This document shows, in pieces, positions 4,186 through 59,806 of a DNA stretch of 64,000 bases. The DNA comes from a virus (Duplodnaviria > Heunggongvirae > Uroviricota > Caudoviricetes). The notes below the pieces were generated by a model. That model ran no database searches, was not told where the DNA came from, and saw nothing but the letters and a program-made list of their open reading frames with translations. Numbering within the stretch: position 1 is the stretch's first letter; each line of letters starts with the position of its first letter. The translations under genes were made by a program, and so were the position numbers. The stretch is taken from IMG/VR virus record IMGVR_UViG_3300028805_000083, positions 37,572 to 101,571 of that record, one strand, 5' to 3'.

Positions 4186-4872
4186 TTATTCTAGTCTCTT
4201 ACATTCCTCTTCACTGAAATTAGCATGAAGTTTGTTAATCCACCAGTTTGTTTTAACTTTACACATAGGTAGCTTCTGCCCTTTCATCAGTGTTGAACGT
4301 TTGATTACAACACCCTCTTTCACATTAGGGTACTGACAACCTTCTTGTGTCCAATCATTGTTGACAATTGAATTAACAAAATCCATGTCAAGTTTACCAA
4401 CGTAGATAACATCTGGAGTTTCAATTCTTTCATCCTTACAGAAAATGTCAATGAAGTCGTTAGGCTCAATATAACCTTTTTTCTTCAAGAACATATCAGT
4501 CATTGCAAGGTGCATTTTATCGTCATGTTGATGAAAACCAGCGAAACTGTTATCTCCGTACCACTCAAAGAACAGCGTTAGTTCTTCAATACCTTTGAAA
4601 ATACCCTTCTTACTAGAGTTATTAATGATTATTTGTCTAAGAACGTCCTCATAGTTTTTCTTAAAGAATTTAACAGCATTGCCAAATCCCTCAGTATCTT
4701 CATCAACTAATGTGTGCCTAGAGCCAAACAATGTAAACTGGTTCTTATTAGCACCTTTAGTGTTATATTTAACCCTAAAGTTCTGACCATCTAGCTTATT
4801 GAAAGCTACCACTTGCTCACCATGTAGTGTTTGGTCATCAAAAAATCTTGGTATGCTGTTATACTCTTTCAT
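4186..4872 (-). CDS. Putative nucleotidyltransferase-superfamily protein, possibly an RNA ligase with a KxDG motif
   Basis: Motif I-like AFNKLDGQNFRV, motif III-like FFEWYGDNSFAGF and motif IV-like LAMTDMFL resemble Rnl2-type ligases. Confidence 0.4.
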   Translation of the reverse strand: MKEYNSIPRFFDDQTLHGEQVVAFNKLDGQNFRVKYNTKGANKNQFTLFGSRHTLVDEDTEGFGNAVKFFKKNYEDVLRQIIINNSSKKGIFKGIEELTLFFEWYGDNSFAGFHQHDDKMHLAMTDMFLKKKGYIEPNDFIDIFCKDERIETPDVIYVGKLDMDFVNSIVNNDWTQEGCQYPNVKEGVVIKRSTLMKGQKLPMCKVKTNWWINKLHANFSEEECKRLE

Positions 4873-4968
4873 AATAAATGCGCAAGGATACTCCCACCTT
4901 TAGGTGGGGGAGGAATTGCGTTTTCCTCTTTTTTTAATTTAATTTTTTTATTAAATATTTGATATTTT

Positions 4969-5613
4969 TCAAAATGGCAATCTTCCTACAAAAGCTCCCA
5001 TAGTCTCTATGTCGTAGATATATTGGCTATCTTCCATTAGGGTAGACCATCTATAATTGGTCTCAAGATTAATTTTAAATTTTTCTATATAAGCTTTCCT
5101 TAGTGCTATGTAGGCATTATGCAGCATTTCGTTTACTTGCCCCATCACGCCAATCAAAGATACCCATGTAGAGTGTTTACCATTCAATGTTATTTTCAAT
5201 ACCACCCTATTGTCACTAAGGAAATTAAACTGAAATGCCATTTTTCCAGAATTAATCTGTTTTTCCATGAATTTCTTTGAAATCTCATTCAGTCCAATCT
5301 CCACTTCTTCAAAACACTCAATTTCATTTCCATCAAGAGAGTACAAAGACCCCATGTCATCGTATAGTGCTGTCTTTGAAAATGCTTGATATATTCTACC
5401 AAGTGTGAATCTTTTGGAAGCCTCATACGGAGATACATTTGGAATTATCATATTACCATTGCTATCATATGTAGAAATAGTATATGAGCCATATCCATAC
5501 ATGTTGCTGTTTCCATAATAAGCTGCGCCATTATACCAACTAGGCATTTGAAATAGTTGCTTTACTGGTATTTCTTTCGTCAGTTTATAAAAATGATTCT
5601 CAATAAATTCCAT
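4969..5613 (-). CDS. hypothetical protein
   Basis: ORF of 214 aa. Confidence 0.4.
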   Translation of the reverse strand: MEFIENHFYKLTKEIPVKQLFQMPSWYNGAAYYGNSNMYGYGSYTISTYDSNGNMIIPNVSPYEASKRFTLGRIYQAFSKTALYDDMGSLYSLDGNEIECFEEVEIGLNEISKKFMEKQINSGKMAFQFNFLSDNRVVLKITLNGKHSTWVSLIGVMGQVNEMLHNAYIALRKAYIEKFKINLETNYRWSTLMEDSQYIYDIETMGAFVGRLPF

Positions 5614-6154
5614 AACCGTCTAATGATTTGTATAGTTTGGTTTTAGTTAGCAAATTTTTTCTAGCTTCTCTATACGCTAGTCTCAAGCCATTCATTTTAT
5701 TCTTTGCCATTGCTTCTCCAACACCAGTGTTTTTAAAACCAACTACTGTAACCTTACAGCTATATAGAATCATGCTACCAATTTTTACTGATGGGATGAC
5801 AGAAACAGAACAACGGCACTCTTCACGCAACTTAGTTGCAATTGGCTCGATGTCTGAATTGTCAAATGGCACTTCCTCGAATTCATATCCACTAGCATCA
5901 CTAATGAATACAAGAGTCTCCATAGCATCTATCAATGCGCCATCTGTAGAACAACGGTATATATGACCCTCGTAGAATAATCCAACACAAGAATCAGCAT
6001 ATTCGTCATAGTTGTAATACCTTGGAAACCTACCACCCCTTTTATACTCCCTACCATAACTGTTTCCAAATACGGTAGAAATAAAAGAATTGATAGATTC
6101 GCTTGATGTATCTTTTTTCTTTATGCAGAGATAAAATTTTCCAGCTTTAAACAT
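5600..6154 (-). CDS. hypothetical protein
   Basis: ORF of 184 aa. Confidence 0.4.
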   Translation of the reverse strand: MFKAGKFYLCIKKKDTSSESINSFISTVFGNSYGREYKRGGRFPRYYNYDEYADSCVGLFYEGHIYRCSTDGALIDAMETLVFISDASGYEFEEVPFDNSDIEPIATKLREECRCSVSVIPSVKIGSMILYSCKVTVVGFKNTGVGEAMAKNKMNGLRLAYREARKNLLTKTKLYKSLDGYGIY

Positions 6155-8970: not shown

Positions 8971-9486
8971 TTAGCTTTCTGTATTTTCAGCAATTATTCT
9001 TTCTCTAACCTCGTCAAGAACCTTACCTAGCAAGTTCTGACCTCTCCAATTCTTTTCATCATCAATTAATTGGTTATTTTGATGTAACCCTACACCATAT
9101 ATACAATCCACTGGAGACGCTTCAACAAAACTCTTTCCCATGTATCTCTCACCTAGCAAAGCCTCTTGGAGTTTAGGACACTTGGTATATTTAAGATAGT
9201 TTGCATCAAGCATGACTTGATAACGTTTCTCATTCCAAACTTTATCATCATAGTTCTTAACCTCCCTACCCAATGCCTTTGCAACTTTGGGGTCTTTACC
9301 ATCTTTGATTATTCTCTCAGCTATTTCATCGTCACCAAATGTCTTGGCTTTAACGAACATGAAATACTGTTCCGCATTGTGGAACTCGTGCTCTTTACCC
9401 TCATACTCAGCAGTAAAAATTGAAGGATGCCAATTTGAAGGCCATCCACTCCAGAAAAATACGTGTTTGTCTGTAACTCTAATCAT
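8971..9486 (-). CDS. NADAR domain protein (YbiA/DUF1768 family)
   Basis: FFWSGWPSNW, AEQYFMFVKAKTFGD, AKALGREV, EASPVDCIYGVG match the conserved blocks of the NADAR family. Confidence 0.7.
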   Translation of the reverse strand: MIRVTDKHVFFWSGWPSNWHPSIFTAEYEGKEHEFHNAEQYFMFVKAKTFGDDEIAERIIKDGKDPKVAKALGREVKNYDDKVWNEKRYQVMLDANYLKYTKCPKLQEALLGERYMGKSFVEASPVDCIYGVGLHQNNQLIDDEKNWRGQNLLGKVLDEVRERIIAENTES

Positions 9487-12180: not shown

Positions 12181-13422
12181 TCAATGCTTACAGTTTTTTA
12201 TTAAATTAAGTATATATTCACACTTTTCTTTGTTTCCTAACATTTTCCCTTTATCATTTGATAGTTTAACACAATCTTGCCACTCACGGCTTTCAGTAAT
12301 TCTAAATCCAGTGAGTTTTATTACAATATTGCTATATGGGAACTTCTCATTTGTTTCATAATTAGTTACGTCAGCGCATAAATGAGTTCCTATTCCCACT
12401 GAATCTTTCATACGCCCATTGAGCCAATTATGAAGTTCTATAGCCTTGTCAATTGTAAGAGCATTTGAATACACGATTGCCTTTGTCGATGGGTCAATAC
12501 CAAGAGAACGATACTTTTCAATAATCTTCTCAGTTTGTTCTTTCTCATCACCACTATCAACACGTAGGCCATCAAATGTTTTCGCAAGACGCTTAGACAA
12601 ATTAGGGAAGAACATAACATCTGAGAAATTATCATAAAGGAAAATTCCGACATCACCGTTAAAACAGCGACTCCACTTATCCATTACTTGATAGTTACAT
12701 TCAAACACGCCACTAACGCACTCTTCGGCAGATACAATCTGATGCGACATCGTGCCTATAACTCCAAGGTTAAATTCCTTTGCGAACCATACGTTAGATG
12801 TACCAACAAATTTACCCGTATAAATTTGAGGGCAATCCTTTTGACGATATTTCACAGCATCACAAAATGCTTTAAGTACATCGTGGTGGTTCTGGAAATC
12901 AAAGCGCCTGCGAGTTCCCATGTCAGAAATAGAAAGTCCACCTTTTAAAGCTTTTAATGCCTTGTCAAATGCCTTATTATATTCCACTTCACGGTCTACT
13001 TTTTCAATATCTCCATTAACAATATGCATCAACTCAGAAATGGTGGAGAGAATAGGCATTTCCCACATGATAGTTGAGTACCATTTACCCTCAATCATAA
13101 TTGAGAGATAACCCTCAAGGTCTTGGAAAATGTGTACCTCAGATGGGTTAAAACGATACCCACGAAGGAAATTGTAATACCAATCTGGAAGGAAATAAAT
13201 CTTGCTCTTCATGAAAGCAATCTCTTCCTCAGTGATAACGACATCTTTCATACCGTCAATCTGCTCTTGTAGAAGCTTACCAAACCCAGCTGGATACTTG
13301 GTGTGATTGCGGTCAAAGAAAGAATAACGTACCTCTGCACGAGGATAAGTGTGAAGAATGTAATACTGAACCGTATACGAATATAAATCGTTATCGGTAA
13401 AATGCGTAACAATTTGTTTCAT
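12181..13422 (-). CDS. pncB: nicotinate phosphoribosyltransferase
   Basis: SDMGTRRRF, FVGTSNVWFA and GLRVDSGD are signature NAPRTase motifs. 413 aa. Confidence 0.8.
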   Translation of the reverse strand: MKQIVTHFTDNDLYSYTVQYYILHTYPRAEVRYSFFDRNHTKYPAGFGKLLQEQIDGMKDVVITEEEIAFMKSKIYFLPDWYYNFLRGYRFNPSEVHIFQDLEGYLSIMIEGKWYSTIMWEMPILSTISELMHIVNGDIEKVDREVEYNKAFDKALKALKGGLSISDMGTRRRFDFQNHHDVLKAFCDAVKYRQKDCPQIYTGKFVGTSNVWFAKEFNLGVIGTMSHQIVSAEECVSGVFECNYQVMDKWSRCFNGDVGIFLYDNFSDVMFFPNLSKRLAKTFDGLRVDSGDEKEQTEKIIEKYRSLGIDPSTKAIVYSNALTIDKAIELHNWLNGRMKDSVGIGTHLCADVTNYETNEKFPYSNIVIKLTGFRITESREWQDCVKLSNDKGKMLGNKEKCEYILNLIKNCKH

Positions 13423-13864: not shown

Positions 13865-14063
13865 TAATATCTTCTACGGCATCAACTGTTTCAGTTGTAC
13901 TACTACTATTATAATAGTAAGTTCTATTGTTATGATAAGGATTATATCTATCATGGGAGTTATTAGAAAGTTCTCCCATGAAATAGAATGTTTCCGCACA
14001 AGAAACCATTAAGCAAATAACTAAGGCTACTCTAATTAACCCTCTAAATAAATCTCTTATCAT
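13809..14063 (-). CDS. hypothetical small secreted or membrane protein
   Basis: 84 aa with a hydrophobic N-terminus. Confidence 0.35.
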   Translation of the reverse strand: MIRDLFRGLIRVALVICLMVSCAETFYFMGELSNNSHDRYNPYHNNRTYYYNSSSTTETVDAVEDINDYEQDTARTYPQQEYEY

Positions 14064-48718: not shown

Positions 48719-48792
48719 TGCATAATAATTTTACTTTGTGCAAATGTATAAAAAAAAATTGAGAAAGACAACCATCTTCCTCAACTTTAAGC

Positions 48793-49508: not shown

Positions 49509-49727
49509 AATCCTCCCATTTATGCTTGCACATCGTTGCTTCTAATTTTTTGAGATATTCTATCATAATAGTAAATTAGGTTTACTTGTACCAACCTTAA
49601 AGGTATCCTTTTATCCATCAAGGAACTAGGGCAAGGGGCTAATCCTCGCACCGCATTACTGCTTGCCTACCATTTATTACGTGGTTTGCGCTTGTCTAAC
49701 TATTTCAGCACCCAACGTGGGAGCACC

Positions 49728-49812: not shown

Positions 49813-49829
49813 CATACGCTCATTATCTC

Positions 49830-50216
49830 TTATTCTGAAAGCCTTTTTAACTTATTATTCAGAACAAGCAGCATACCTTCAGCAAGAAGCTTTTCATCGG
49901 TATGCTTCTTGATTGCTTCTTTCAGCCTCTCTATTGCCACTTTCTTGGCTTCTTCTGCGCTATCATACACAAGCTGTCCATTAACGAGATAATCACCATT
50001 CTCAAGGTCAGTTCTACCGATTTTGAACTTGGGTCTAGTTTTACCATCGTTAATAGGTTCTTTGACTACTTTTGATTCTATTACATCGTAGCCATTTATG
50101 TATATGGCAGTATCGCCAATATTTAAACTTGCTGCTTTTTTCATATTGCAAAGATACGAAAAAAAAATTGAATTATCCAAATTTTTTAAGAATTTTTTAT
50201 AAAAAAAAAACACCAT
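49830..50216 (-). CDS. hypothetical protein
   Basis: ORF of 128 aa. Confidence 0.4.
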   Translation of the reverse strand: MVFFFYKKFLKNLDNSIFFSYLCNMKKAASLNIGDTAIYINGYDVIESKVVKEPINDGKTRPKFKIGRTDLENGDYLVNGQLVYDSAEEAKKVAIERLKEAIKKHTDEKLLAEGMLLVLNNKLKRLSE

Positions 50217-50247
50217 AAGCTAAAGCCTATAGTGCTTTTATATCGCA

Positions 50248-50613
50248 TCAGTCTTCGGTTACTGTTTTCAAATTTTTAAATAGCTCTTCGTGTCCGAAAA
50301 CCGCCAAGGCTGTTGTTTTATAGTTTAAATCTGGTTCTTTAAACTCGGTATAGTCAATGCCATACCCTTCAAGCTTTCTTTTCCACTTATCTACGTCAGC
50401 GTATAGATAAATCAAATAATCGTTACTCCATTCAAGACTATTGGGATGCTCAATCATCCATTGAGCCACTGCATGACCGCCTTGAACACAACCATATACT
50501 GGTTTTAACGCTCTATCTACGAGTATGTATAACTTCTTTTTAATCATTGCCTTCTGCGGATGCAAATTTGTTATACTCCTCGATAACGTAATTTTTAAAA
50601 AGTGGAATTGCAT
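50248..50613 (-). CDS. Peptidyl-tRNA hydrolase, PTH2-like
   Basis: KKLYILVDRALKPVYGCVQGGHAVAQW resembles the PTH2 core (K..lVvR.DL.M..GK.aAQ..HA). 121 aa. Confidence 0.5.
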   Translation of the reverse strand: MQFHFLKITLSRSITNLHPQKAMIKKKLYILVDRALKPVYGCVQGGHAVAQWMIEHPNSLEWSNDYLIYLYADVDKWKRKLEGYGIDYTEFKEPDLNYKTTALAVFGHEELFKNLKTVTED

Positions 50614-50854
50614 AATTCTCAGTCATATCACCACCACTACCAACTAGTCTACCACTGTAGAGACCTTTATAACAACGGTTTCTTACTTCTTCCTCAAGAT
50701 ACTTGTCACGCTCTTCACCCTCAATACGATGCTTAAAAATGTAATAAGCAACATAATCTTCGTGAGAATGTACGCAATCAGCTTTAATGTACTCCTTAAA
50801 CTTAAGATACTGTTCTCTAGTGGTGGCTTCGTTTGTAAAAATTTTCTTTTCCAT
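50540..50854 (-). CDS. hypothetical protein
   Basis: ORF of 104 aa. Confidence 0.35.
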   Translation of the reverse strand: MEKKIFTNEATTREQYLKFKEYIKADCVHSHEDYVAYYIFKHRIEGEERDKYLEEEVRNRCYKGLYSGRLVGSGGDMTENYAIPLFKNYVIEEYNKFASAEGND

Positions 50855-51139
50855 ATGATATATTTTTTAATTTGTTTGTTATTATTAATGAATTTAAAAT
50901 ACTTCACTTATATTCCCCATCCAAACTAAAATATATCAGGACCACGAATCAGTTTCAGCTACCAAAACTCGCTAGAAACCTACCAAAAACTGTTTTTTCT
51001 CATAATGATAATTAATTTAAATTTGTTATTAAAAAACGGAAGCTTTTTTTCTAGAATAAATGATTTCAAGTCAAGTCCTATAGAAATTTGCTGTTAGCTT
51101 CCTTGATATATCCGCTTGTTTAGCAGAAAGGATTAGTTG

Positions 51140-51263
51140 CAGGGACTGACGGACTCGAACCGCCATCTTTTATTAACAGTTAAAGGTACAATCTGTTCCG
51201 AAGTCGAGACTGTGTGATTCCTTAAATCGCAACAAACCACTCTTACCATTGAGCTAAATCCCT
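51140..51263 (-). tRNA. tRNA gene carrying an intervening sequence of about 50 nt
   Basis: 5' half AGGGATT-TA-GCTC-AATGGTAA-GAGT and 3' half GGCGG-TTCGAGT-CCGTC-AGTCCCT have complementary acceptors but lie 124 nt apart. The insert contains a 25-nt element that also occurs at 15551-15575. Confidence 0.5.
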
Positions 51264-51610
51264 ATATAAATACAAAAGGCTGAGAATTTGACCTTATTGT
51301 TGATGCCTTTATGCAAGCGTTGGAACTTGTTCTTCACACGCCACCTTACGATGGACGTAGACACCATGCACGATGATTTTGTGAAAACCACCTAAACTCT
51401 TACTGATTTAAACCTTTCGGTACAGAATCATAACATTCATTTCACCACCAAGCTGTTGCGCATTTTGACTAGATGCCTCCAGTCCACTCAGATGACTACT
51501 TTTACTAGTTTGTTGGATTCCTTGCGAGTCACCAACCACTTCATATTACAGAAGTATAAGTGCATTTTATCTGCTCAGTGTCGCACACTTTCGCTTTTAA
51601 TCTTTATTTT

Positions 51611-51688
51611 AAAAGACGACAGGATTCGAACCTGTAACACTCGGCTCCTCAAGCTGATGCTCTACCGTTGAGTTACACTTTCACAACT
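51611..51688 (-). tRNA. tRNA-like gene, anticodon possibly GAG, with mismatched stems
   Basis: T arm ACAGG-TTCGAAT-CCTGT and D arm ACTC-AACGGTA-GAGC. The anticodon arm is imperfect. Confidence 0.4.
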
Positions 51689-52400
51689 AATGGAAGACGA
51701 GGTGCGACTCTTAGAATCTGTGTCTTTTGGACACAGCCCACTAAATCGCCTTCCTATGCCAAACCCACCACAAGTTTGTAGCACTAATAAACACTCTCAG
51801 CCTTACGGTTCTTAACGCTTATAACATTCATCATGCCTTTCACGTTAAGACAAATGTGTATTTGAACCCAACACGCCAACTGGTGATTATTGTATCAAGT
51901 CCCACAAGGTAATCTATTGTATCACTACTCAACCCAAGCTGTTAACCTAGGTAGCATACTACACGATTTTACCTACCGAACAGTATACCGTACCTTGTGC
52001 TTTTCAGTGAAATGCCCTAGTTTCCTAGAACATCTGAGTCGGCTTAGTTGTCAATATCCGTCTCATTTATCCCATCACTGGATTATCCTTCCATCTGGCC
52101 ACGAAAGCTGACCATTAGCCTATGCCTTTTGCAAGACATTTCCTCTTGGAATCGGCTTATTCTTTTGGGTATTATTTCCATTTTGGTTTATTATAATCGG
52201 TAAACTGCTTCCTCTTACGAGGTGGGTCTATATCCCAAGCTCCGATTTTTTACACCATTATAGAATACCTTCCCCAATGCATTGTTTTCTAGTACACGTT
52301 CTCTAGAATTATGGCTTCCGAAGTCACCATAGTCATGGATTGTTTAACCACATAAAACCCACTTTTACCGTTGTCTACAGCACGAAAAGGCATATCTCGT

Positions 52401-52542
52401 TGGTTAGAGCAGATTTGCACTGCTGAAGCTTCCGAAGAAACACATCAAGCACGAACTTGATGTCCATTTGTCTACATCGTCATTACTGACGTTCTCCTCT
52501 GGTACTAACCAAAAGGTGGTTTTTTAACTTGTCCACCACAAG
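52401..52542 (-). ncRNA. Candidate structured ncRNA, copy 1 of 2
   Basis: A paralog of about 142 nt of 52702-52843. It has a terminal 8-bp closing helix, an internal C(UUCG)G hairpin and a CATCAAG...CTTGATG hairpin. A GGTGG...CCACC hairpin plus a U-run lies at its minus-strand 5' side. Confidence 0.4.
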
Positions 52543-52701
52543 GTATAGTGTGTAGTATTGTAAAGGCTAATTCATTTTACAGAACTAATTTAATGGTAAA
52601 GGACATCTGCTATGTTTCATACAGTTGTGTGTTTGTCGCAACCTCACTTTCCTCGCCAACCTTTACTGCCGATTGCACCTGAGCGTTTATACTACATTTG
52701 T

Positions 52702-52843
52702 TGGTAGAGCTAGATTTGCACTAGCGAAGACTCCGAAGAGCCACATCAAGCACGAACTTGATGCCCATTTGTCTACATCGTCATTGCTGACGTTCTCCTC
52801 TGGTATCTACCAAAAGGTGGTTTTTTAACTTGTCCACCACAAG
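52702..52843 (-). ncRNA. Candidate structured ncRNA, copy 2 of 2
   Basis: About 85% identical to copy 1. The terminal helix shows compensatory changes (TTGGTAGA/TCTACCAA against TTGGTTAG/CTAACCAA). Confidence 0.4.
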
Positions 52844-52861
52844 AATAGTTGCGGGAGTCAG

Positions 52862-52936
52862 GCTCGAACTGACACGATGCGTTTCTAGCGTAGAAGGCTT
52901 ATGAGACCCACATGTTACCATTACATTATCCCGCTA
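52862..52936 (-). tRNA. tRNA-like gene with a CUCAUAA loop (CAU) and an extended variable region
   Basis: Acceptor AGCGGGA/TCCCGCA is a 6/7 match. D arm ATGT-AATGGTA-ACAT. T arm GTCAG-TTCGAGC-CTGAC. Confidence 0.45.
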
Positions 52937-53901
52937 TTTATAAATTTATTGAATTCATCTTCAACAAACTGTGGTTTATATTTACCCATATCTTTTATAA
53001 TATAAGGTATATAGCCACAATTCTTAATCTCTTTAATCTTTATTTTATCTCTATTTTGAACTTGTTCAACAGAATGGTCTTCTTTTATCTTTTGATAATG
53101 CCATTTCCCATTCCATAAAACAGCCACTTTAATGTCTTCTATAATAACATCAGCGTCCCAACCATTAAATATTGGCTCATTATGTTTTACATTATTGAAA
53201 TGTTTTTCACATAATTCACAGAAATATTTTTCATTTTTAGAACGTCTATTTTCTCCTTGAACTTTGGCAGAATTCTTTCCAGCAGTACTAAGTTTTTTTA
53301 TTGCGTCCTCAGAAAGATATTTCTTCCTATTAATTCGATATTCATTCAAGCATTCTCTAGAACAGAACATTCTAGTTGCACCACTTTCATTTAAATGGTA
53401 TTTTCTACCACATATACGGCATATATATTCTTTTCGTGGAGCTATAGTATTAGCAATGTTTTTCTTCTTTAGCTCATAAGATTCGCCAAATTTAGAGCGA
53501 TAATATTTTAATATTGATTCACTAGTTTTCCTTTTAGTTTCTTCACTTGGTTTTTCTCTTAACCTATTGTTGTATTTAGCTGCACAACTTTTAGAGCAGA
53601 AAAAATGTTTTGTTTTAGATGCTTTATAAGCACTAGCAGTAACTTCTACATTCTTACCACAATTTTCACAATGGAAATGATTCTTTTTTCTATGTGAAAA
53701 AGCAGAACAATCAATTGAACAGTATTTTAATCTTCCTCTGTTATTTTTTAACTCGAATGTTATCTGTTTTTTTTCGCCATAAAATATTTTTCCGCAATGT
53801 TCGCATTCTAATGCTAATTTATCTGTGCTTTTTGCATTTTTATATTCTTCATCTGTATATCTAACTATCATAATACATATTCTTATATATATAAATATCA
53901 C
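52921..53901 (-). mobile_element. Zn-ribbon repeat protein with a C-terminal Vsr/PD-(D/E)XK-like nuclease domain, probably a homing endonuclease
   Basis: Several CxxC...CxxC modules. GWDADVIIEDIKVAVLWNGKWHY resembles the Vsr core (D.vf...k.avFvdGcFWH). It sits inside the tRNA array. Confidence 0.5.
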
Positions 53902-54036
53902 GATGGTTGCGAAAATACGATTCGAACATATGTTTTTTAGGCTAAAATTCGGAAACTATATTTTTTCACATCTTAAATTTGCAGTTTAATGTTAAAAAAT
54001 TAATTGCTGTAAGTTTCCTTGATTAATTTCAACTTT

Positions 54037-54072
54037 GCAAAGATATAAAAAATTTTTTTAATATCCAAATTT
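54037..54072 (-). promoter_or_regulatory. Representative Bacteroidetes sigma-A promoter (-33 TTTG, 19-nt spacer, -7 TATCTTTG) driving 53901..52921
   Basis: Minus strand reads ATTTGGATATTAAAAAATTTTTTATATCTTTGCAAAG. The plus-strand motif gcaaagata...ccaaat recurs about 28 times in the window. Confidence 0.65.
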
Positions 54073-54073
54073 T

Positions 54074-54343
54074 TTAAGAACTTTTTTCAAGTTTTTTGAA
54101 AAATTCATTCAACTTGGTCAATTCTGACAATCCATTTGCAAGTTCTTCTGCGTTGACAATCAACTCATTCTTACCTTCTTCAATACTATTTATCTGAGTA
54201 TGAAGAGATTCCATGAGCTTACCCTTTAGGGTGTCACGATATTTTACGCTAACAATCTTCTGAGCTTCTTGCTTCTCATAGCCAGCTTCACAAAGATTTT
54301 TATATAACTCGTTTCTAAATTCTTTTTCTAAAATCTTACTCAT
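54074..54343 (-). CDS. hypothetical coiled-coil protein
   Basis: ORF of 89 aa with a promoter at 54367-54410. Confidence 0.4.
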   Translation of the reverse strand: MSKILEKEFRNELYKNLCEAGYEKQEAQKIVSVKYRDTLKGKLMESLHTQINSIEEGKNELIVNAEELANGLSELTKLNEFFKKLEKSS

Positions 54344-54403
54344 TGCTTATATTTTCGTTTAACAATGCAAAGATATAGAAAATAATTGAGACTTCCAAAT
54401 TTT

Positions 54404-54985
54404 TTAACGAATATTAACAAAATCAATTAATAAAATATCTTTGTCAGTTCCATTTTTAATAATTTCTTTATTTTTCCTCTTAGCATATAGCCAAGGCCAC
54501 CAATCATCTATTAATTTAGGGGCTTTCACTGAAGAATAATTTTCTTCGCAAGAAGGCTCATCCTTAAATTTGTAATCATATTCCCAATTATAAAGATTTC
54601 TTCCGCACCAAAATGTGATGTTTTTATATTCATCAGAAATATGTTTACAAAAATCTACAAAGTTTTCTTTTGAGAAAGTTGTATATTGGTTTTTATTTCT
54701 AACCTCATGCAAAACTCTAATATAGCAGTCCTTTTTGGAATTAATATATTCTAAATCATTTACCAAATCAAACCAGCGATATTTATATTCCATTATACCG
54801 TGCGCTAAAACCAAACCTTCAGTTTTGTCAAATCTTACTCTTAAATCGAAACACCTAACACCATATTTCTCATATTGAGTTTTAATATCAACGCTTTGGC
54901 ATTTTGACATGAATTTTAACGGATATTGCCACCATTTTTTAGGTTTTAAATATGTCCAAGAATTATGTGAACCTAATATGCTCAT
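54404..54985 (-). CDS. hypothetical protein
   Basis: ORF of 193 aa. Confidence 0.4.
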   Translation of the reverse strand: MSILGSHNSWTYLKPKKWWQYPLKFMSKCQSVDIKTQYEKYGVRCFDLRVRFDKTEGLVLAHGIMEYKYRWFDLVNDLEYINSKKDCYIRVLHEVRNKNQYTTFSKENFVDFCKHISDEYKNITFWCGRNLYNWEYDYKFKDEPSCEENYSSVKAPKLIDDWWPWLYAKRKNKEIIKNGTDKDILLIDFVNIR

Positions 54986-55392
54986 TGATTTTCAGATATT
55001 TTAATGTGGACCTAGAGGGATTCGAACCCTCGTTCCAGAAATTCGCCTCATAAGAAATTATACAAGCTTCCCCAAAGTGTCCGAAAACACCGCCTTTGAG
55101 ACCACCTCATTTTGAGAAAACGAGGAAAACTAGGGGTGGATGACTAGAGTCACCGATTCCACCATCTTTTAAATAAAAAATATTAAAAAGAATAATGCTA
55201 GGATGTTCTGTTCCTAAGAGCCTAGCCTCTCGGCTCACATTACGCAGCTATAGCGTACTCGTAAGCAGGAGAATTAACATTCTCGCCAGTTATATTTTTT
55301 GCTATTTCAAGTGTATGCCCACTGCTTGTTTCTTACCAAACTCAACTCATAACGGTCAAAACCAAATAGGCCCAAATTATTTGTATTTTTGG

Positions 55393-55466
55393 TGTTGAAG
55401 GGGTGACTCGAACACCCAACCTATTGAATATCAGTCAATTGCGCTAACCAATTGCGCCACTCCAAC
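55393..55466 (-). tRNA. tRNA-Ile(GAU)
   Basis: Acceptor GTTGGAG/CTTCAAC, D arm GCGC-AATTGGTTA-GCGC, anticodon arm ATTGA-CTGATAT-TCAAT, T arm GGGTG-TTCGAGT-CACCC. Confidence 0.7.
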
Positions 55467-55634
55467 ATTAATAATGCTCTAACCTACTGAGCTACCACTC
55501 GATTATATAACTAGTTTGTGGAATTCCGATTCTTCACCACACAAGTTTCACTAGACCTCCTAATGTTATATGCGTCCGTTATAGGATACCAACGTTATAC
55601 GCTTGCCAATTTATTTATCGTACTGCGGAACTAG

Positions 55635-55859
55635 TTATAGACTTACCGTTTCGCAACTTTTTTTAAACTCTTCTAGAGTGCCATCAAAAATCCAATCTGA
55701 CACCCTATCATCTTTTACATTCTTTACTACAATTGTAACACGAGATTTGCCATCTTTCTCTTCCTCTTTGATGAGCCTAATATCTTCATATCTAAATATT
55801 GCAACTTTTACGCTTCTTGTCGGAAATCTCACTTGCAAGAATAGTTTACCATTTGCCAT
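55635..55859 (-). CDS. hypothetical protein
   Basis: ORF of 74 aa. Confidence 0.35.
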   Translation of the reverse strand: MANGKLFLQVRFPTRSVKVAIFRYEDIRLIKEEEKDGKSRVTIVVKNVKDDRVSDWIFDGTLEEFKKSCETVSL

Positions 55860-55934
55860 TATAAATATTGTTTTATGTTCAAAAAGTACGGAAACGTTTT
55901 AATACATTAAGTTGCTCTACCTAACTGAGCTACA

Positions 55935-56000
55935 AGGAGTATAAACCCCTCGATGGGATTCGAACCCATGACCTACTGCTTACAAGGCTTATTAAAAAAC
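55935..56000 (-). other. Juxtaposed tRNA halves in permuted order, a 3' half then a 5' half. See findings.
   Basis: On the minus strand the sequence reads ...ATGGG-TTCGAAT-CCCAT-CGAGGGG-T-TTATA-CTCCTTG-TA-GCTC-AGTTAGGTA-GAGC-A-ACTTA.... The strands CGAGGGG and CTCCTTG are complementary, with two G-U pairs. Confidence 0.4.
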
Positions 56001-56313
56001 TATTGCTGTCTGTTTCCTTAGCGCTTGAGGTCGGATTTGCACCTTCTGTCTCTGTCTCCATCTTTCGACTTTGTACCAGCGTTTATACTACTTAACACTT
56101 CTCAAGCATGTTTCGCCTACTGTACCCATGTGATAACTTGAACGATGTATCACATCAAGCCATCGCAGACTTGTCTTACATTAACGTAGTTAAGACCAAT
56201 ATACGGCATTCTTAACCTAAAGTATGCTTACGAGCACGTTACAGATATTCATTGTTTTGTATGTCTTGCAGATAAGCCTTTAACGTGCAAAAGGCTATTT
56301 TTCAGTATATCTA

Positions 56314-56421
56314 AAATGAAAACCACAATGAGGACATAAAAACACCTCACCATTCTCGTCAATTGCTTTGGAAATGTCAATTTTGACATTATTTCCACAT
56401 CTTACACATTTTACCTCCATA
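56314..56421 (-). CDS. Zn-ribbon mini-protein of about 35 aa (not in the ORF track)
   Basis: Hand translation gives MEVKCVRCGNNVKIDISKAIDENGEVFLCPHCGFHF, with CxxC...CxxC. Confidence 0.3.
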
Positions 56422-56498
56422 ACATTTATTTTTGTAATGCAAAGATATGAAAAAAAAATTGGAATAACCAAATATTTTAACGTTTTTTTAGAAAAGTG

Positions 56499-56573
56499 TT
56501 GGACTGGTGGGAGTCGAACCCACGATTTTCACCTTGTAAGGGTGCTGTCCTAAACCACTAGACGACAGTCCAG
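56499..56573 (-). tRNA. tRNA-Val(UAC)
   Basis: Acceptor TGGACTG/CAGTCCA, D arm GTCT-AGTGGTTTA-GGAC, anticodon arm CACC-CTTACAA-GGTG, T arm GTGGG-TTCGACT-CCCAC. Confidence 0.65.
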
Positions 56574-56896
56574 TTTGGCACGAACATTTTGTCATATATA
56601 CGTGTAGAATCTTTATGTTAAGCGAAACAATACAAAATTGTCAAGGGGTTTGCACCCTTATCGTTCTATTCAGAATAGAGTGCTTTGTTCTCTACCTCGT
56701 CTATTGCTAGACAAACTCAGTGCCTTTGTATCAGTCATGGTCTATTACAGACCAACCTTGCCTTTGTATTTGTAAGCAAACCAACCGATAACCCCACCCA
56801 AAATGAATTCAATCATAGTTGTAATATTTTTAAAAGATTAGACAATTAATTTGATGTTGCAAAGATATAAAAAATATTTTTAATTTCCAAATAAAA

Positions 56897-57562
56897 TTAC
56901 CATTTTTCTAACTTTTTAACAATCTTTTCTTTTTCCATTTGAGCATTGAATTTGTCTTGAATCAATTCAGCTTGAATCTCATTCTCAAGTTCATCATAGT
57001 CATCTTCGTTATATTGCTCATGTAAGCCATACTTTTTCTTACGAGGTCTCTTACATGCTAGTTCGTCACACTTTACAGCGTTTTTACCATCACCCCAGCG
57101 GAACTGTAGCCAACCCTCGTATTCTCCATAATCGAATACATAGCCTTTTGGAATTTCATCGTCACCCCTAAAGTATTCATCAAGCATTCTCAGTGATACC
57201 TCTTGTGTTCTCCAAGGATAATACATATTGGAGTGACCATATACTCCGTCATGTCCAATTTTAATGATTCTACTTCTTTCAAAATCTAAAACCATGTATC
57301 CCCAGAACCTATCTTGGACATCAAATTTCCATTCTTTAGTGTGCCACTTATCCCTTGGAATTTCTTCTTGATGTGGTCTTGGAGTATCAGCGTAAACCTC
57401 TTCAATCAGTTTAACCTCTTTCTTCCACTCTTCCTCAGTATCAAACTCAGTCTCAGTATGGATATACTCATGTAGGTTATACAAGCCAGTCATTTTTCTA
57501 TCTGACAATGATTTACCCCACATTGAGAATATGACCATATATCGTTTTGTATGTTTCTTCAT
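56897..57562 (-). CDS. hypothetical protein
   Basis: ORF of 221 aa. Confidence 0.4.
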   Translation of the reverse strand: MKKHTKRYMVIFSMWGKSLSDRKMTGLYNLHEYIHTETEFDTEEEWKKEVKLIEEVYADTPRPHQEEIPRDKWHTKEWKFDVQDRFWGYMVLDFERSRIIKIGHDGVYGHSNMYYPWRTQEVSLRMLDEYFRGDDEIPKGYVFDYGEYEGWLQFRWGDGKNAVKCDELACKRPRKKKYGLHEQYNEDDYDELENEIQAELIQDKFNAQMEKEKIVKKLEKW

Positions 57563-58176
57563 GTTTCTTTTCTTTTTCTGAAAGATGCCTTTAAATCAAA
57601 TCCATGAGACAATATCTTGCCCTCATTGGTTTGCGTCTTAATACCATCAACCGAACCAAACAAGTCTATGAAAAGAGTATTCTTAAACTCTTTCAAGTAA
57701 TCTTTCTTATAGCCATAATCCTCTAAAGATTCGATAAGGTTTGAAAGCAACCCCTCAAGGTCTTTAACAAGATGGTCTTCAATACCATTACCAATCAAAT
57801 CCCAAGGTCTTGTTTCGTGTCCAATTGATGTGCCATTAAGTTGGGCTAAATATGTAATCTCATAATAACCACCAGTAATGCCAATGATATGTTTGCACCT
57901 TATACCGACTTCATCATGTACCTTTTTAGCTTTTATTTTACTTACGTCTTTATAGTAATAGAATCCAAGAGGTGAAATACATTTAGCATCACGCCCACCT
58001 TTACCAGTGTAGCATACTACTCTAGAATCGTCCTTAATAACTTTCTCACCTTTGGTGAAAGATGTTCTTGTAGTATTAATTCCGATTCCTATACAGTCCT
58101 TATCCTCAACTTTAGCAACAATCACGTCACATTTGCTGAATAGGATTTTCCGCTTTTCTCTTATTTTAACAGCCAT
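57559..58176 (-). CDS. hypothetical protein
   Basis: ORF of 205 aa. Confidence 0.4.
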   Translation of the reverse strand: MAVKIREKRKILFSKCDVIVAKVEDKDCIGIGINTTRTSFTKGEKVIKDDSRVVCYTGKGGRDAKCISPLGFYYYKDVSKIKAKKVHDEVGIRCKHIIGITGGYYEITYLAQLNGTSIGHETRPWDLIGNGIEDHLVKDLEGLLSNLIESLEDYGYKKDYLKEFKNTLFIDLFGSVDGIKTQTNEGKILSHGFDLKASFRKRKET

Positions 58177-58391
58177 TAGTCAACAAAACCTTCAAAATAA
58201 TTTTTTACAACTTTAAACGGCCAGAAGAATACCAAACCTAATAAAAACAAAACTGCCATTGGTTCTTCACTGCCTTCGTTTAGCTCTTTCACTAATTTAT
58301 ATTCTAGTTCATATTCGTCTTTCCACCAAATATATACCAAAATAATACCAACAAGGAAATATCCAATTATAATATATTCCCAAATCGTCAT
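58176..58391 (-). CDS. small membrane protein
   Basis: 71 aa with two transmembrane segments. Confidence 0.35.
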   Translation of the reverse strand: MTIWEYIIIGYFLVGIILVYIWWKDEYELEYKLVKELNEGSEEPMAVLFLLGLVFFWPFKVVKNYFEGFVD

Positions 58392-58508
58392 AATAGTAAA
58401 GTAGGCTTCCTCGACCTACCACGACAGTTAACGGTTTTTGTTAGTTCAAGGTACTAATAGACCAAGCGCAGTGCTCTGTTACACCGTAAACACCGATAAG
58501 GATTATCG

Positions 58509-58580
58509 CAGGCACAGCAGGAATCGGACCCACATCTGAGGTTTTGGAGACCCCCATTCTAACCATTAAACTATGCGCCT
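58509..58580 (-). tRNA. tRNA-Trp(CCA)
   Basis: Acceptor AGGCGCA/TGTGCCT. Anticodon arm GGGGT-CTCCAAA-ACCTC. The T arm has wobble pairs. Confidence 0.55.
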
Positions 58581-58590
58581 ATATATACGG

Positions 58591-59094
58591 CTAGATAACC
58601 CAGCCGCTACTTTCTGTAAACAGTATTTCTTTTCCTTTATAAAGTATAAAGCCTTTCCCCTTTTTATAAACAATTGGGCAAATTTTTGGCATGGAAATAG
58701 AACACTTTTCGTTGTTTCTCCAACCAACCAAGGCTTTTTTCTTACCGAAGAAATCAACAATACATAAAGTTTTGTCCTTATTCTTCATCACCTCAATAGG
58801 CTTCCTCTTCTGTAGGATAAGATAAGCATCAATACCTTCCTTACCCTTTTTATGGGCTTGTTTAGATAGAGCCTTATAATCAGCTTTTACCTCTTCATCG
58901 GATGGCATTTTCTCCCCAAAACCAGCCCACCTCTCAGCAAGCTCCTTACGCATCTGTCTGTACTCAGCCAAAGTCATTTTCTTATCTGACTTAGGTGTTT
59001 CATGCTGACCATCAATGCTAGTCAAATATTTGTAAGGTACATTGAGATACCTAGTATCTACTGACCTATTCTTACCAAACTTATTTACTGACAT
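58591..59094 (-). CDS. hypothetical basic protein
   Basis: ORF of 167 aa. Confidence 0.4.
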   Translation of the reverse strand: MSVNKFGKNRSVDTRYLNVPYKYLTSIDGQHETPKSDKKMTLAEYRQMRKELAERWAGFGEKMPSDEEVKADYKALSKQAHKKGKEGIDAYLILQKRKPIEVMKNKDKTLCIVDFFGKKKALVGWRNNEKCSISMPKICPIVYKKGKGFILYKGKEILFTESSGWVI

Positions 59095-59095
59095 A

Positions 59096-59806
59096 TTATT
59101 TATCTTCTACATACACACCGCAATATTGAGGTTTACCCAATTCAACCCACTCATCGTGAGTCATAATGTGATATGTTTTGTGTTTTGGTTGTTTCTTATT
59201 ACCGACACTACTAATATCCCTTGTCTTCGAATCAACAGACTTTATGATGTCTGGTATTCTATAGCTTCCCACCATCTGTTTAATCAAAGACGCATAGTTC
59301 TTTGCTAAATAATACTCAGAGCATGTTATCCACAATGGAGTTTTAGACTCACCACGTAGAATCTCTACACAATCTGGAATATTACAATGGTATGGATTCT
59401 TAGCAATACCAACAATTGATATGTCTGGTCTGTTGTATTCTGTCATCAGAGCGTTTGCTAGACGCATACCAATTCCAGGAGTTCTGTCTTTTCCATTTTC
59501 AGATAACCAAACAAATCCGTCAACAATGATTGTATCAACGTCATCTAAATCTAGCATCTTCAAACATTGCATAATACATGGTAATTCACGTTTATACAAC
59601 TCTCCAGGTTTATACTCTGCATCAATGGTTTCCCTTTTACTTGTGACGAAATATTTTACTTTCGTGTCTGTCCAACTTTCAAATACACCGCCAACAGTAT
59701 ATGAATATCCATCGTAATAGTATGTATCAAATGCAACAATCATCCTAATATTTTTTCTATATCTTTTTTTAACCCATAAAAATTCCTTTTTAATGGTAAT
59801 GGACAA
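59096..59806 (-). CDS. nfi: endonuclease V (Nfi) homolog
   Basis: IVAFDTYY, EYKPGELYKRELPCIMQCLKML, IIVDGFVWLSENGKDRTPGIGMRLANAL and ISIVGIAKNPY line up with the E. coli EndoV blocks (ADVGF; [41 protein letters not shown]). Confidence 0.65.
   Translation of the reverse strand: MSITIKKEFLWVKKRYRKNIRMIVAFDTYYYDGYSYTVGGVFESWTDTKVKYFVTSKRETIDAEYKPGELYKRELPCIMQCLKMLDLDDVDTIIVDGFVWLSENGKDRTPGIGMRLANALMTEYNRPDISIVGIAKNPYHCNIPDCVEILRGESKTPLWITCSEYYLAKNYASLIKQMVGSYRIPDIIKSVDSKTRDISSVGNKKQPKHKTYHIMTHDEWVELGKPQYCGVYVEDK

What the first reader, a model, noticed from the sequence alone, without database searches (positions are those of the whole stretch)
4186..59806. Dispersed RNA-repair and tRNA-maintenance module (two ligases, CCA enzyme, Pth2, HIT, EndoV, phosphoesterase)
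The window encodes the following, alongside more than 20 tRNA genes:
- an Rnl2-family RNA ligase at 14063-14989 (KIDGTN, GEYFGSGIQK, FLVFDI);
- a second KxDG ligase-like protein at 4186-4872;
- a CCA-adding enzyme with an HD domain at 17913-19319;
- a Pth2-like peptidyl-tRNA hydrolase at 50248-50613;
- a HIT hydrolase at 47480-47851, a family that de-adenylates RNA and DNA;
- an endonuclease V homolog at 59096-59806, which also acts on inosine-containing RNA;
- a calcineurin-like phosphoesterase fragment at 711-929.

This mirrors the T4 Pnkp/Rnl healing-and-sealing logic used against anticodon nucleases, but with a broader enzyme set.
Basis: partly seen in the sequence, partly recalled or inferred. 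Interest (0 to 1): 0.65.

Follow-up and report, generated by a model that had tools for sequence, protein, structure and literature searches.

The report
Huge-phage tRNA-care and NAD genes
This stretch of a roughly 410-kb phage genome does carry two RNA ligases, a tRNA CCA-adding enzyme, a Pth2-type hydrolase and other helpers next to a tRNA array, but they form a loose toolkit of a kind already described for jumbo phages, mixed with an NAD-salvage gene set, and not a new repair module.

Summary

Corrections:
- The phosphoesterase "fragment" is exon 1 of a complete gene split by a 1135-nt group I intron carrying a LAGLIDADG endonuclease.
- The HIT protein is Hint/Fhit-like, not aprataxin-like, and abuts an NMN-deamidase-family gene.
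- The two ligases have complete Rnl2-type catalytic motifs but no Rnl2 C-terminal domain.
- tRNA-like genes number 16-18 plus a tmRNA, not more than 20.

No polynucleotide kinase was detected in the window, so a T4-style heal-and-seal pathway is incomplete as seen here.

The set splits in two. The Pth2-like, EndoV-like and HIT genes sit inside tRNA arrays (0.5-1.2 tRNA per kb). The ligases do not (0.02-0.08 per kb). They lie in a block with the CCA enzyme and the NAD genes PncA-like, PncB and NADAR, and that order is kept only among close relatives.

Iyer et al. 2021 already describe jumbo-phage RNA repair with tRNAs, several Rnl2 paralogues, calcineurin-like or HD phosphatases, CCA enzymes and PTH2. 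Verdict: a new member of a known kind.

The parts
14063..14989 (-). Rnl_A: ATP-dependent RNA-ligase-family protein of 308 aa. It has an Rnl2-type adenylyltransferase domain with a ~45-aa insertion and a short C-terminal helix, and no Rnl2 C-terminal domain.
   Evidence: PF09414, 62 bits. PHROG 548, E 1e-19. In the family alignment K56, G59, N61, E166, D190, E249, G250, K270 and K272 are invariant. The family profile hits the T4 Rnl2 domain 1s68 at E 2.2e-18. The Rnl2 equivalog TIGR02307 scores only 20 bits against a cut-off of 197.
4186..4872 (-). Rnl_B: minimal 228-aa RNA-ligase-family protein consisting of the adenylyltransferase domain only.
   Evidence: PF09414, 36.3 bits. PHROG 548, E 3.8e-16, covering positions 3-237 of 341. 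K26, D28, G29, N31, E103, D126, E186, G187, K205 and K207 are invariant. hhalign to the Rnl_A family gives 91.6% probability, E 8e-7. It is 22% identical to Rnl_A.
17913..19319 (-). Class II tRNA nucleotidyltransferase, most likely CCA-adding, with a C-terminal HD domain.
   Evidence: PolyA_pol 93 bits, PolyA_pol_RNAbd 56.6 bits and HD 25.3 bits. PHROG 2244, E 4e-62. The best NCBIfam hit is TIGR02692 CCA, 212 bits, below its cut-off.
50248..50547 (-). It belongs to a large phage family embedded in tRNA arrays.
47480..47851 (-). HIT hydrolase of the Hint/Fhit/Ap4A-phosphorylase type. It overlaps the upstream CinA/PncC-like gene by 1 nt.
   Evidence: PF01230, E 1.6e-25. The PDB hits are Hint-like, Ap4A phosphorylase and Fhit, with no aprataxin. 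A CinA gene lies directly upstream in 3 of 8 related loci.
47851..48351 (-). CinA/PncC-type protein (NMN deamidase family).
   Evidence: PF02464, E 6.4e-24. NCBIfam PncC_domain, 65.7 bits against a cut-off of 68.9.
59096..59743 (-). Endonuclease V-like protein of 215 aa, counted from the ATG.
   Evidence: PF04493, 25.9 bits against 23.4, N-terminal half only. The only PDB sequence hits are EndoV entries 3ga2 and 6ozq, at E 0.5-0.9. D6, Y44, E53, D75 and K115 are invariant in 5 homologues. All 7 related loci hold 5-10 tRNAs within 3 kb.
726..929 (-). Exon 1 of a 227-aa calcineurin-like metallophosphoesterase. It ends at the GNH motif.
   Evidence: The spliced protein matches the full Metallophos profile, E 2.2e-12, 48 bits. 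Exon 2 lies beyond the window's left edge, at L017 15283-15762.
1..725 (-). 5' part of a 1135-nt group I intron with a LAGLIDADG homing-endonuclease ORF (window 655 to the edge). The catalytic core lies outside the window.
   Evidence: RF00028, 50.2 bits against a cut-off of 50, at L017 14913-15235. LAGLIDADG_3, E 9e-6. The splice junction restores GNHD.
38888..62929 (-). tRNA array: about 15 tRNA or tRNA-like genes, including a CTA-anticodon suppressor at 49736-49821, interspersed with small ORFs and HNH endonuclease genes.
   Evidence: ARAGORN. Rfam. PHROG HNH hits.
55004..55373 (-). tmRNA.
   Evidence: ARAGORN gives the tag peptide GENVNSPAYEYAIAA. RF00023, 55.2 bits against a cut-off of 47.
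12181..13422 (-). PncB, nicotinate phosphoribosyltransferase. It lies about 640 nt downstream of Rnl_A, separated from it by two small ORFs.
   Evidence: TIGR01514 equivalog, 298 bits against a cut-off of 269.6. Pfam NAPRTase plus NAPRTase_N.
16531..17112 (-). Isochorismatase-family protein, PncA (nicotinamidase)-like.
   Evidence: PF00857, 30.8 bits. Its only NCBIfam hit is nicotinamidase/pyrazinamidase, 87 bits, below cut-off.
8971..9486 (-). NADAR-domain protein.
   Evidence: PF08719, E 2.5e-42. TIGR02464, 136 bits against a cut-off of 73.7.
32930..33496 (-). NUDIX hydrolase of unknown specificity.
   Evidence: PF00293, E 1.1e-14.

Best explanation
The window is an accessory arm of a roughly 410-kb huge phage. 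It holds two loosely linked toolkits, not one module.

Toolkit A is a tRNA/tmRNA array (about 38.9-62.9 kb) with genes embedded in it: a Pth2-fold hydrolase, an EndoV-like nuclease and a Hint/Fhit-type HIT protein coupled to a PncC-like gene.

Toolkit B (about 4-19 kb) is a block conserved within the clade. It carries a CCA-adding enzyme with an HD domain and two stand-alone Rnl2-type adenylyltransferase-domain ligases, interleaved with Preiss-Handler NAD salvage genes: PncA-like, PncB, NADAR, and NadD just outside the window.

Inferred mechanism:
- The phage supplies its own tRNAs and tmRNA.
- The CCA enzyme rebuilds damaged tRNA 3' ends. Its HD domain may remove 2',3'-cyclic or 3' phosphates, as in E. 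coli Cca.
- The Pth2-fold protein frees tRNA from stalled peptidyl-tRNA.
- Each ligase self-adenylylates on its motif I lysine (K56 in Rnl_A, K26 in Rnl_B) and seals 3'-OH/5'-phosphate nicks in structured RNA such as cleaved tRNA.
- The NAD genes restore NAD+ independently of all this.

Shown here: the family and fold assignments, the intact catalytic motifs, the genomic associations and the conservation. Inferred: every substrate and every activity.
For: - Profile hits support six of the seven genes.
- Ligase motifs I, III, IIIa, IV and V are invariant in both ligase families.
- The Rnl_A family profile matches the T4 Rnl2 domain at E 2e-18.
- tRNA density is 1.18 per kb around Pth2-like genes (78 of 80 loci), 1.12 around EndoV-like genes (7 of 7) and 0.52 around HIT genes (7 of 8), against 0.075 around Rnl_B and 0.023 around Rnl_A.
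- The order CCA, PncA-like, Rnl_A, PncB, NADAR is kept in 10 of the 11 loci with at least 60% Rnl_A identity (the 11th lacks only NADAR), and Rnl_B lies within range in 5 of them.
- The genes keep the same order and spacing on contigs of about 410 kb.
- PncB and NadD pass their equivalog cut-offs.
- Published descriptions cover jumbo-phage RNA repair with tRNAs, Rnl2 paralogues, CCA and PTH2 (PMC7824862) and NAD gene clusters in ruminant-gut jumbo phages (PMC11662467).
Against: - No activity was tested.
- Both ligases lack the Rnl2 C-terminal domain. From my own knowledge of Ho et al. 2004, T4 Rnl2(1-249) needs that domain for complete nick sealing, so stand-alone function is uncertain.
- No 5' kinase was detected in the window, so repair of 5'-OH breaks cannot be completed with these genes alone.
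- The ligases are not near tRNAs, and their synteny with CCA and the NAD genes disappears in homologues of 43-50% identity. So neither a tRNA link nor an NAD link is supported by conserved context.
- The Pth2-like family scores below every Pth2 sequence model. By inspection and my own recollection of Pth2 sequences, it seems to replace the catalytic lysine region of archaeal Pth2 with an invariant Y-G-C-V-Q-G-G-H motif.
- The EndoV match is marginal.
Confidence: 0.6

Rival explanations
1. The seven genes are one coordinated heal-and-seal pathway against anticodon nucleases. The phosphoesterase and/or the HD domain heal 3' ends, the HIT protein removes abortive 5'-AMP, the ligases seal, and the CCA enzyme and Pth2 finish the repair.
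For: All components are present and conserved together in the clade. Calcineurin-like and HD phosphatases are proposed healing enzymes in some jumbo phages (PMC7824862). The spliced phosphoesterase is full length, and the junction restores the canonical GNHD motif.
Against: No 5' kinase was detected in the window (plus the Pfam lists). The HIT protein is not aprataxin-like. The phosphoesterase is generic and not adjacent to either ligase. The genes are spread over 55 kb among roughly 90 others, in two neighbourhoods with tRNA densities that differ 7- to 50-fold. Synteny holds only at clade level.
Confidence: 0.15
2. The ligase-family proteins and the HIT protein are not tRNA repair enzymes. 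They serve nucleotide or NAD-linked metabolism or DNA transactions. Examples are adenylyl transfer connected with the adjacent PncA/PncB/NadD/PncC genes, or sealing of nucleic acids other than tRNA.
For: Rnl_A lies between PncA-like and PncB in all 11 close loci. HIT overlaps a PncC-like gene by 1 nt, and this adjacency recurs in 3 of 8 loci. The nearest HIT relatives include Ap4A phosphorylase and an 'ATP adenylyltransferase' model. The ligases are far from tRNAs.
Against: PF09414 and the T4 Rnl2 domain are the only families matched by the ligases. The NAD linkage vanishes in more distant Rnl_A homologues. The CCA enzyme sits in the same block. HIT lies as often near Pth2-like genes and tRNAs as near CinA. 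I know of no precedent for an Rnl-type enzyme in NAD synthesis.
Confidence: 0.15
3. An RNA-processing or offensive role. The EndoV-like nuclease, with or without the ligases, acts on specific RNAs. These could be host inosine-containing tRNA or the phage's own unusual tRNA-like and GOLLD-like RNAs. The action would be cutting, or cutting and rejoining, and not the repair of host-inflicted damage.
For: The EndoV-like gene always sits in a tRNA array (7 of 7 loci) and has conserved catalytic-type residues. Two tRNA-like genes carry insertions in the anticodon arm that are too short for self-splicing, and one of them is conserved with a structured arm. A GOLLD-like RNA lies next to it. From my own knowledge, EndoV enzymes cleave inosine-containing RNA.
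Against: The extended arm shows covariation as a stable hairpin, which suggests a mature structured RNA and not an intron. The EndoV loci all come from one clade, so the association may simply be inherited. The ligases are about 35-55 kb away. There are no RNA data.
Confidence: 0.07

Closest known systems
Jumbo-phage RNA repair and ribosome rescue repertoire (Iyer, Anantharaman, Krishnan, Burroughs and Aravind 2021, Viruses 13:63, section 3.4.9)
   Same: tRNA arrays are supplemented by one to three Rnl2-family ligase paralogues, a CCA-adding enzyme, archaeo-eukaryotic-type PTH2, and calcineurin-like or HD phosphatases. The genes are dispersed and not organised as an operon.
   Different: No polynucleotide kinase, RlaP nucleotidyltransferase, RtcB, 2H or HAD enzyme is visible in this window. 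The EndoV-like and HIT proteins are not part of the published set. This clade of about 410 kb is uncultured, and no phage in the GenBank collection is close to it.
T4 RNA ligase 2 (Rnl2; PDB 1s68, 2hvq)
   Same: The adenylyltransferase domain carries motifs I, III, IIIa, IV and V. The Rnl_A family profile matches it at E 2e-18. Both window proteins hit PF09414 and PHROG 548.
   Different: Both window proteins end 20-35 residues after motif V, so the Rnl2 C-terminal domain is absent. The equivalog model scores 20 bits against a cut-off of 197. Rnl_A has a ~45-aa insertion between motifs Ia and III and a conserved N-terminal YxKIxTLYKR segment.
T4 Pnkp plus Rnl1 repair of PrrC-cleaved tRNA-Lys
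   Same: The logic of phage-encoded enzymes that restore tRNA function.
   Different: There is no Pnkp-type kinase-phosphatase here, and the ligases are Rnl2-like, not Rnl1-like. No link to an anticodon nuclease is shown.
Pth2 / Bit1 (PF01981; PDB 1wn2, 1xty, 1q7s) and phage 'peptidyl-tRNA hydrolases' (RaK2, Myrna)
   Different: No Pth2 sequence model is matched. Identity is 13-26%. The invariant YGCVQGGH motif and E71/D73 differ from the archaeal consensus as I recall it. The equally good match to Atu0240, a protein of unknown function, shows that the fold alone does not fix the activity.
Bacterial class II CCA-adding enzyme with HD domain (E. coli Cca type)
   Same: Head domain, RNA-binding domain and HD domain in the same order.
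   Different: It scores below every NCBIfam equivalog cut-off, 212 against 438.8 bits at best. CCA specificity as opposed to poly(A) specificity is inferred, not tested.
NAD-jumbo phages of animal guts (Li et al. 2024, Microbiome 12:268) and the NARP2 pathway
   Same: Phage-encoded PncB and NadD, with PncA-like and PncC-like helpers, clustered in a huge phage from gut-type metagenomes.
   Different: NadE was not seen within the regions examined. NARP1 (Adps/Namat) and NARP3 (PnuC/NadR) components are absent.

Membership tests
PF09414 RNA_ligase superfamily | Pfam HMM score above the gathering cut-off | tested here: met
   Rnl_A 62 bits and Rnl_B 36.3 bits, against a cut-off of 27.
Covalent nucleotidyltransferase (ligase) active site | Motif I KxDGxN lysine plus motifs III, IIIa, IV and V conserved | tested here: met
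   Rnl_A family: K56, G59, N61, E166, D190, E249, G250, K270 and K272 are invariant over 41 sequences down to about 30% identity, and D58 is nearly so. Rnl_B family: K26, D28, G29, N31, E103, D126, E186, G187, K205 and K207 are invariant.
Rnl2 family proper (T4 Rnl2, TIGR02307) | Equivalog HMM score at or above the curated cut-off | tested here: not met
   Rnl_A scores 20.1 bits against 197.15. Rnl_B has no hit. 31 of 41 relatives match, none better than E 2.6e-10.
Rnl2 family proper (T4 Rnl2, TIGR02307) | Rnl2-specific C-terminal domain of about 85 aa following motif V | tested here: not met
   The PHROG 548 matches stop at positions 241 and 237 of 341. The PDB alignment covers only the 1-249 domain. 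The proteins end about 35 and 20 residues after motif V.
T4-type tRNA heal-and-seal pathway | A 5'-OH polynucleotide kinase encoded alongside the ligase | tested here: not met
   No kinase Pfam hit appears on any window gene. The only real Walker A motif is in the AAA_25 protein. The rest of the 410-kb genome could not be examined.
T4-type tRNA heal-and-seal pathway | A 2',3'-cyclic phosphodiesterase or 3'-phosphatase | tested here: inconclusive
   The candidates are the HD domain of the CCA enzyme and the spliced metallophosphoesterase. Neither is of the Pnkp type. The nearest PDB sequences to the phosphoesterase are MPPED2 and Dbr1.
Class II CCA-adding tRNA nucleotidyltransferase | PolyA_pol head domain plus RNA-binding domain above cut-off | tested here: met
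   93.1 bits against 23, and 56.6 bits against 22.
Class II CCA-adding tRNA nucleotidyltransferase | Equivalog-level match that separates CCA-adding enzymes from poly(A) polymerase | tested here: inconclusive
   The best hit is a CCA model (TIGR02692, 212 bits), ahead of PcnB (142.6 bits), but both are below cut-off.
Pth2 (PF01981) | Match to a sequence model | tested here: not met
   No Pfam or NCBIfam hit. The family profile finds nothing in PDB at E up to 10. None of 120 homologues has a precomputed Pfam domain.
Pth2 (PF01981) | Pth2 alpha/beta fold | tested here: met
Pth2 (PF01981) | Peptidyl-tRNA esterase activity and catalytic residues | not testable with these tools
   No residue-level structural alignment was available. 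The invariant C20, H25, E71 and D73 suggest an active site, but it may differ from that of archaeal Pth2.
HIT superfamily | HIT domain HMM and the HxHxHxx motif | tested here: met
   PF01230, 90 bits. The sequence contains HCHIHII.
Aprataxin branch of HIT (RNA/DNA 5'-deadenylase) | Closest relatives are aprataxins, and a zinc-finger extension is present | tested here: not met
   All 47 PDB hits are Hint, Fhit, Ap4A phosphorylase or generic HIT proteins. The protein is only 123 aa.
Endonuclease V (PF04493) | Pfam HMM above the gathering cut-off over the whole domain | tested here: inconclusive
   25.9 bits against 23.4, but only profile positions 11-95 of 198 are matched. NCBIfam equivalogs score 16-20 bits against cut-offs of 230-300. 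The PDB EndoV hits have E 0.5-0.9. The D6, Y44, E53, D75 and K115 pattern is conserved.
Calcineurin-like metallophosphoesterase | Full-length Metallophos match including the GNHD motif | tested here: met
   The spliced 227-aa product scores 48.2 bits over profile positions 1-190 of 191.
Group I intron | Rfam RF00028 at or above the gathering score, a U before the 5' splice site and a G before the 3' splice site | tested here: met
   50.2 bits against 50. Exon 1 ends ...AAUCAU, and exon 2 follows ...AAAG.

The most novel reading that the evidence does not exclude
The two stand-alone Rnl2-type adenylyltransferase-domain ligases, which lack the domain T4 Rnl2 needs for nick sealing, may belong to a large uncharacterised family of minimal RNA ligases (774 representative clusters at E up to 1e-10). 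In this clade they may work with the EndoV-like nuclease on the phage's own unusual RNAs and not on damaged host tRNA. Those RNAs are tRNA-like genes with 12- and 52-nt anticodon-arm insertions, and a GOLLD-like RNA enclosing a tRNA. This would be a protein-catalysed RNA cut-and-rejoin or maturation system in a phage.
Probability: 0.06. Interest if true: 0.75.

Novelty: new member of a known kind. Interest (0 to 1): 0.3.

Why it matters
If the inferred functions hold, this uncultured huge-phage clade would be another example of a phage that maintains translation during infection. It would do so with its own tRNAs, tmRNA, tRNA end repair, peptidyl-tRNA recycling and RNA sealing, alongside NAD+ replenishment. 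Both are recognised answers to host defences that cleave tRNA or deplete NAD+.

The concept is already published, so the value is incremental:
- A clean fold-level assignment of a very widespread phage Pth2-like family that sequence models miss, and that is almost always embedded in tRNA arrays.
- Two minimal Rnl2-type ligase families suitable for biochemical study.

Tried and rejected
- **Finding a close phage relative.** Megablast of two window segments and tblastn of the 820-aa protein against the GenBank phage collection found nothing.
- **Single-sequence PDB searches.** Searches for Rnl_A, Rnl_B and the Pth2-like protein gave nothing useful. So did a shallow Rnl_A profile and the Rnl_B profile, which returned only spurious Rsp5 hits.
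- **AlphaFold model of Rnl_A.** It failed (pLDDT 42.5) and was not used, so there is no fold-level classification of the ligases.
- **First look-up of the EndoV-like protein.** It used a wrong start coordinate and was redone.
- **NARP3 (PnuC plus NadR).** Considered for the NAD genes and rejected, because its components are absent.
- **TAG recoding.** Tested because of the CTA-anticodon tRNA and rejected for this window. TAG ends 12 of 67 long ORFs, and no genes merge.
- **A possible 2H phosphoesterase at 54404-54985.** A motif screen raised it, but it has no family support and its N-terminal GSHNSW motif looks PLC-like, so it was dropped.
- **The 52-nt tRNA insertion as a spliced intron.** Considered, but its conserved and covarying hairpin argues for a mature structured arm.
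- **The 304-nt gap at 15393-15696.** It shows no significant folding signal (z -0.18).

Full report
**Setting.** The window has about 34% G+C, and almost every gene is on the minus strand. No phage in the GenBank collection is close to it. The same proteins occur on JGI and ENA metagenome contigs. Relatives with 73-77% identity in Rnl_A sit on viral contigs of 407-413 kb. The window is therefore part of an uncultured huge phage. BspA-type leucine-rich repeats, ankyrin repeats and the published ruminant-gut jumbo phages with Bacteroidota hosts suggest a gut origin. I could not verify the sample type.

**Observation check.** All seven ORFs exist.

- The two ligase-like proteins both pass the PF09414 cut-off (62 and 36.3 bits against 27) and hit PHROG 548 'RNA ligase'.
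- The 468-aa protein has the PolyA_pol head, RNA-binding and HD domains.
- The HIT protein is clear (E 1.6e-25).
- The EndoV match is marginal: 25.9 bits against 23.4, and only the N-terminal half of the profile is covered. The only PDB sequence hits are endonuclease V entries. D6, Y44, E53, D75 and K115 are invariant in five homologues down to about 49% identity. By inspection these fit the catalytic and wedge positions of EndoV.
- The proposed Pth2 has no hit in Pfam, NCBIfam or PDB by sequence, even as a 40-sequence profile.
- tRNAs: ARAGORN finds 14 plus a tmRNA. Rfam adds four more, two of them with odd anticodon arms. 'More than 20' is an overcount.

**Ligases.** A deep HMMER search shows that Rnl_A belongs to a small family of about 300-aa proteins. 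This family grades into a very large family of 210-240-aa proteins that share an N-terminal YxKIxTLxKR segment. Across 41 sequences, ligase motifs I, III, IIIa, IV and V are invariant. The profile matches the T4 Rnl2 adenylyltransferase domain at E 2e-18, well ahead of Pab1020 and DNA ligases. The Rnl2 equivalog model is nevertheless far below cut-off. Rnl_B is a separate paralogue, 22% identical to Rnl_A. Its motifs are also invariant, and its profile aligns with the Rnl_A family at 91.6% probability. Both proteins end shortly after motif V and so lack the Rnl2 C-terminal domain. The AlphaFold model of Rnl_A failed and was not used.

**Phosphoesterase.** The 'fragment' stops immediately after GNH. 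A contig that extends past the window edge shows a LAGLIDADG ORF, an Rfam group I intron match at the gathering score, and a second exon. Joining the exons after a U and after a G restores GNHD. The result is a 227-aa protein that spans the whole Metallophos profile. It is generic: its nearest PDB sequences are MPPED2 and Dbr1.

**HIT.** Its relatives in PDB are Hint-like proteins, Ap4A phosphorylase and Fhit, and never aprataxin. It overlaps a CinA/PncC-type gene by one base. That adjacency recurs in 3 of 8 related loci, and a Pth2-like gene lies within 3 kb in 4 of 8.

**Is it a module?**

- No kinase, HAD, 2H, RtcB or RlaP protein was found in the window. This rests on precomputed or fresh Pfam and PHROG scans and on a motif screen.
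- tRNA density separates the set into two groups. It is 1.18 per kb around Pth2-like genes, 1.12 around EndoV-like genes and 0.52 around HIT genes. It is 0.075 around Rnl_B and 0.023 around Rnl_A.
- The ligases sit in a block ordered CCA, PncA-like, Rnl_A, PncB, NADAR, then Rnl_B. That order is kept in the 11 loci with at least 60% Rnl_A identity, one of which lacks NADAR. It is absent in 8 loci at 43-50% identity. It is therefore inherited synteny and not a conserved operon.
- PncB and NadD pass their equivalog cut-offs. PncA and PncC are the best but sub-threshold hits for their proteins. A Preiss-Handler NAD route is therefore present, as reported for gut jumbo phages.

**Comparison with the literature.** Iyer et al. 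2021 already describe, for jumbo phages, tRNA arrays supplemented by Rnl1/Rnl2 ligases (three Rnl2 paralogues in XacN1), kinases and phosphoesterases including calcineurin-like and HD types, CCA-adding enzymes, and archaeo-eukaryotic PTH2 for ribosome rescue. Al-Shayeb et al. 2020 list CCA-adding enzymes and tmRNAs in huge phages. EndoV and HIT are additions whose role is unproven.

**Verdict.** The annotations are mostly right, with three corrections: exon instead of fragment, the HIT branch, and the tRNA count. The single T4-like module is not supported. The best reading is two loosely linked accessory toolkits, one for tRNA and translation upkeep and one for NAD salvage, both of a kind already known. 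Confidence is 0.6, and interest is low to moderate.

Noticed in passing
window 1-725 (minus strand), continuing to L017 14148-15282: A 1135-nt group I intron with a LAGLIDADG homing-endonuclease ORF splits the metallophosphoesterase gene exactly after its GNH motif. Splicing restores GNHD.
   Followed up: yes
window 8971-9486, 12181-13422, 16531-17112, 32930-33496, 47851-48351; L017 19900-20544: An NAD-related gene set: NADAR, PncB (passes equivalog), PncA-like, NUDIX and PncC-like, plus NadD (passes equivalog) about 5 kb beyond the window edge. It is a Preiss-Handler salvage route interleaved with the ligase and CCA genes.
   Followed up: partly
window 51277-51754 (minus strand): A full-length match to the GOLLD RNA model: 73.4 bits, below the gathering score of 150, E 1.9e-17. 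The conserved 5' hairpin, pseudoknot strands and 3' end are present, and tRNA-Leu(GAG) sits inside its variable region. It lies in an ORF-free stretch.
   Followed up: partly
window 51140-51263 (minus strand): A tRNA-like gene with normal acceptor, D and T arms but 63 nt where the model expects 11 in the anticodon arm. It is conserved at full length in relatives and folds into a long hairpin with some compensatory changes.
   Followed up: partly
window 15551-15575 and 51189-51213 (minus strand): An exact 25-nt repeat, ACAGTCTCGACTTCGGAACAGATTG, which forms a UUCG-capped hairpin. One copy is at the tip of the extended tRNA-like arm. The other is in the 304-nt gap upstream of the Rnl_A region and is conserved in seven loci.
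   Followed up: partly
window 15357-15441 (minus strand): A second tRNA-like gene (Rfam 42.9 bits) with about 12 extra nt in the anticodon region. It overlaps the start of the endonuclease-like ORF next to Rnl_A.
   Followed up: partly
window 49736-49821 (minus strand): An 86-nt tRNA with a CTA (amber-reading) anticodon and a long variable arm. TAG is nevertheless used as a stop for 12 of 67 long ORFs in this window, and no genes merge when TAG is read through.
   Followed up: partly
window 55908-55977 (minus strand): A sub-threshold match to the tRNA-like part of the YrlA (Y RNA-like) model, 39.7 bits, E 1.3e-5. No Ro/TROVE protein was seen in the window.
   Followed up: no
window 14955-15392, 10830-12176 (+), 33459-34784, 52921-53901, 61659-62534: Many homing-endonuclease-type genes are scattered through the region: HNH-type PHROG hits and DUF723/DUF4379 proteins. 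One abuts and overlaps the start of Rnl_A.
   Followed up: partly
window 36984-38744 and 23299-25356: A BspA-type leucine-rich-repeat protein (E 7e-112) and a 685-aa protein with C-terminal ankyrin repeats. These are unusual host-interaction-type proteins for a phage.
   Followed up: no
window 30275-30799, 31190-31951, 60547-61077, 43612-44694: Other accessory genes: DHFR, DUF1848, a protein matching a PHROG named cysteine dioxygenase, and an AAA_25 RecA-like ATPase.
   Followed up: no
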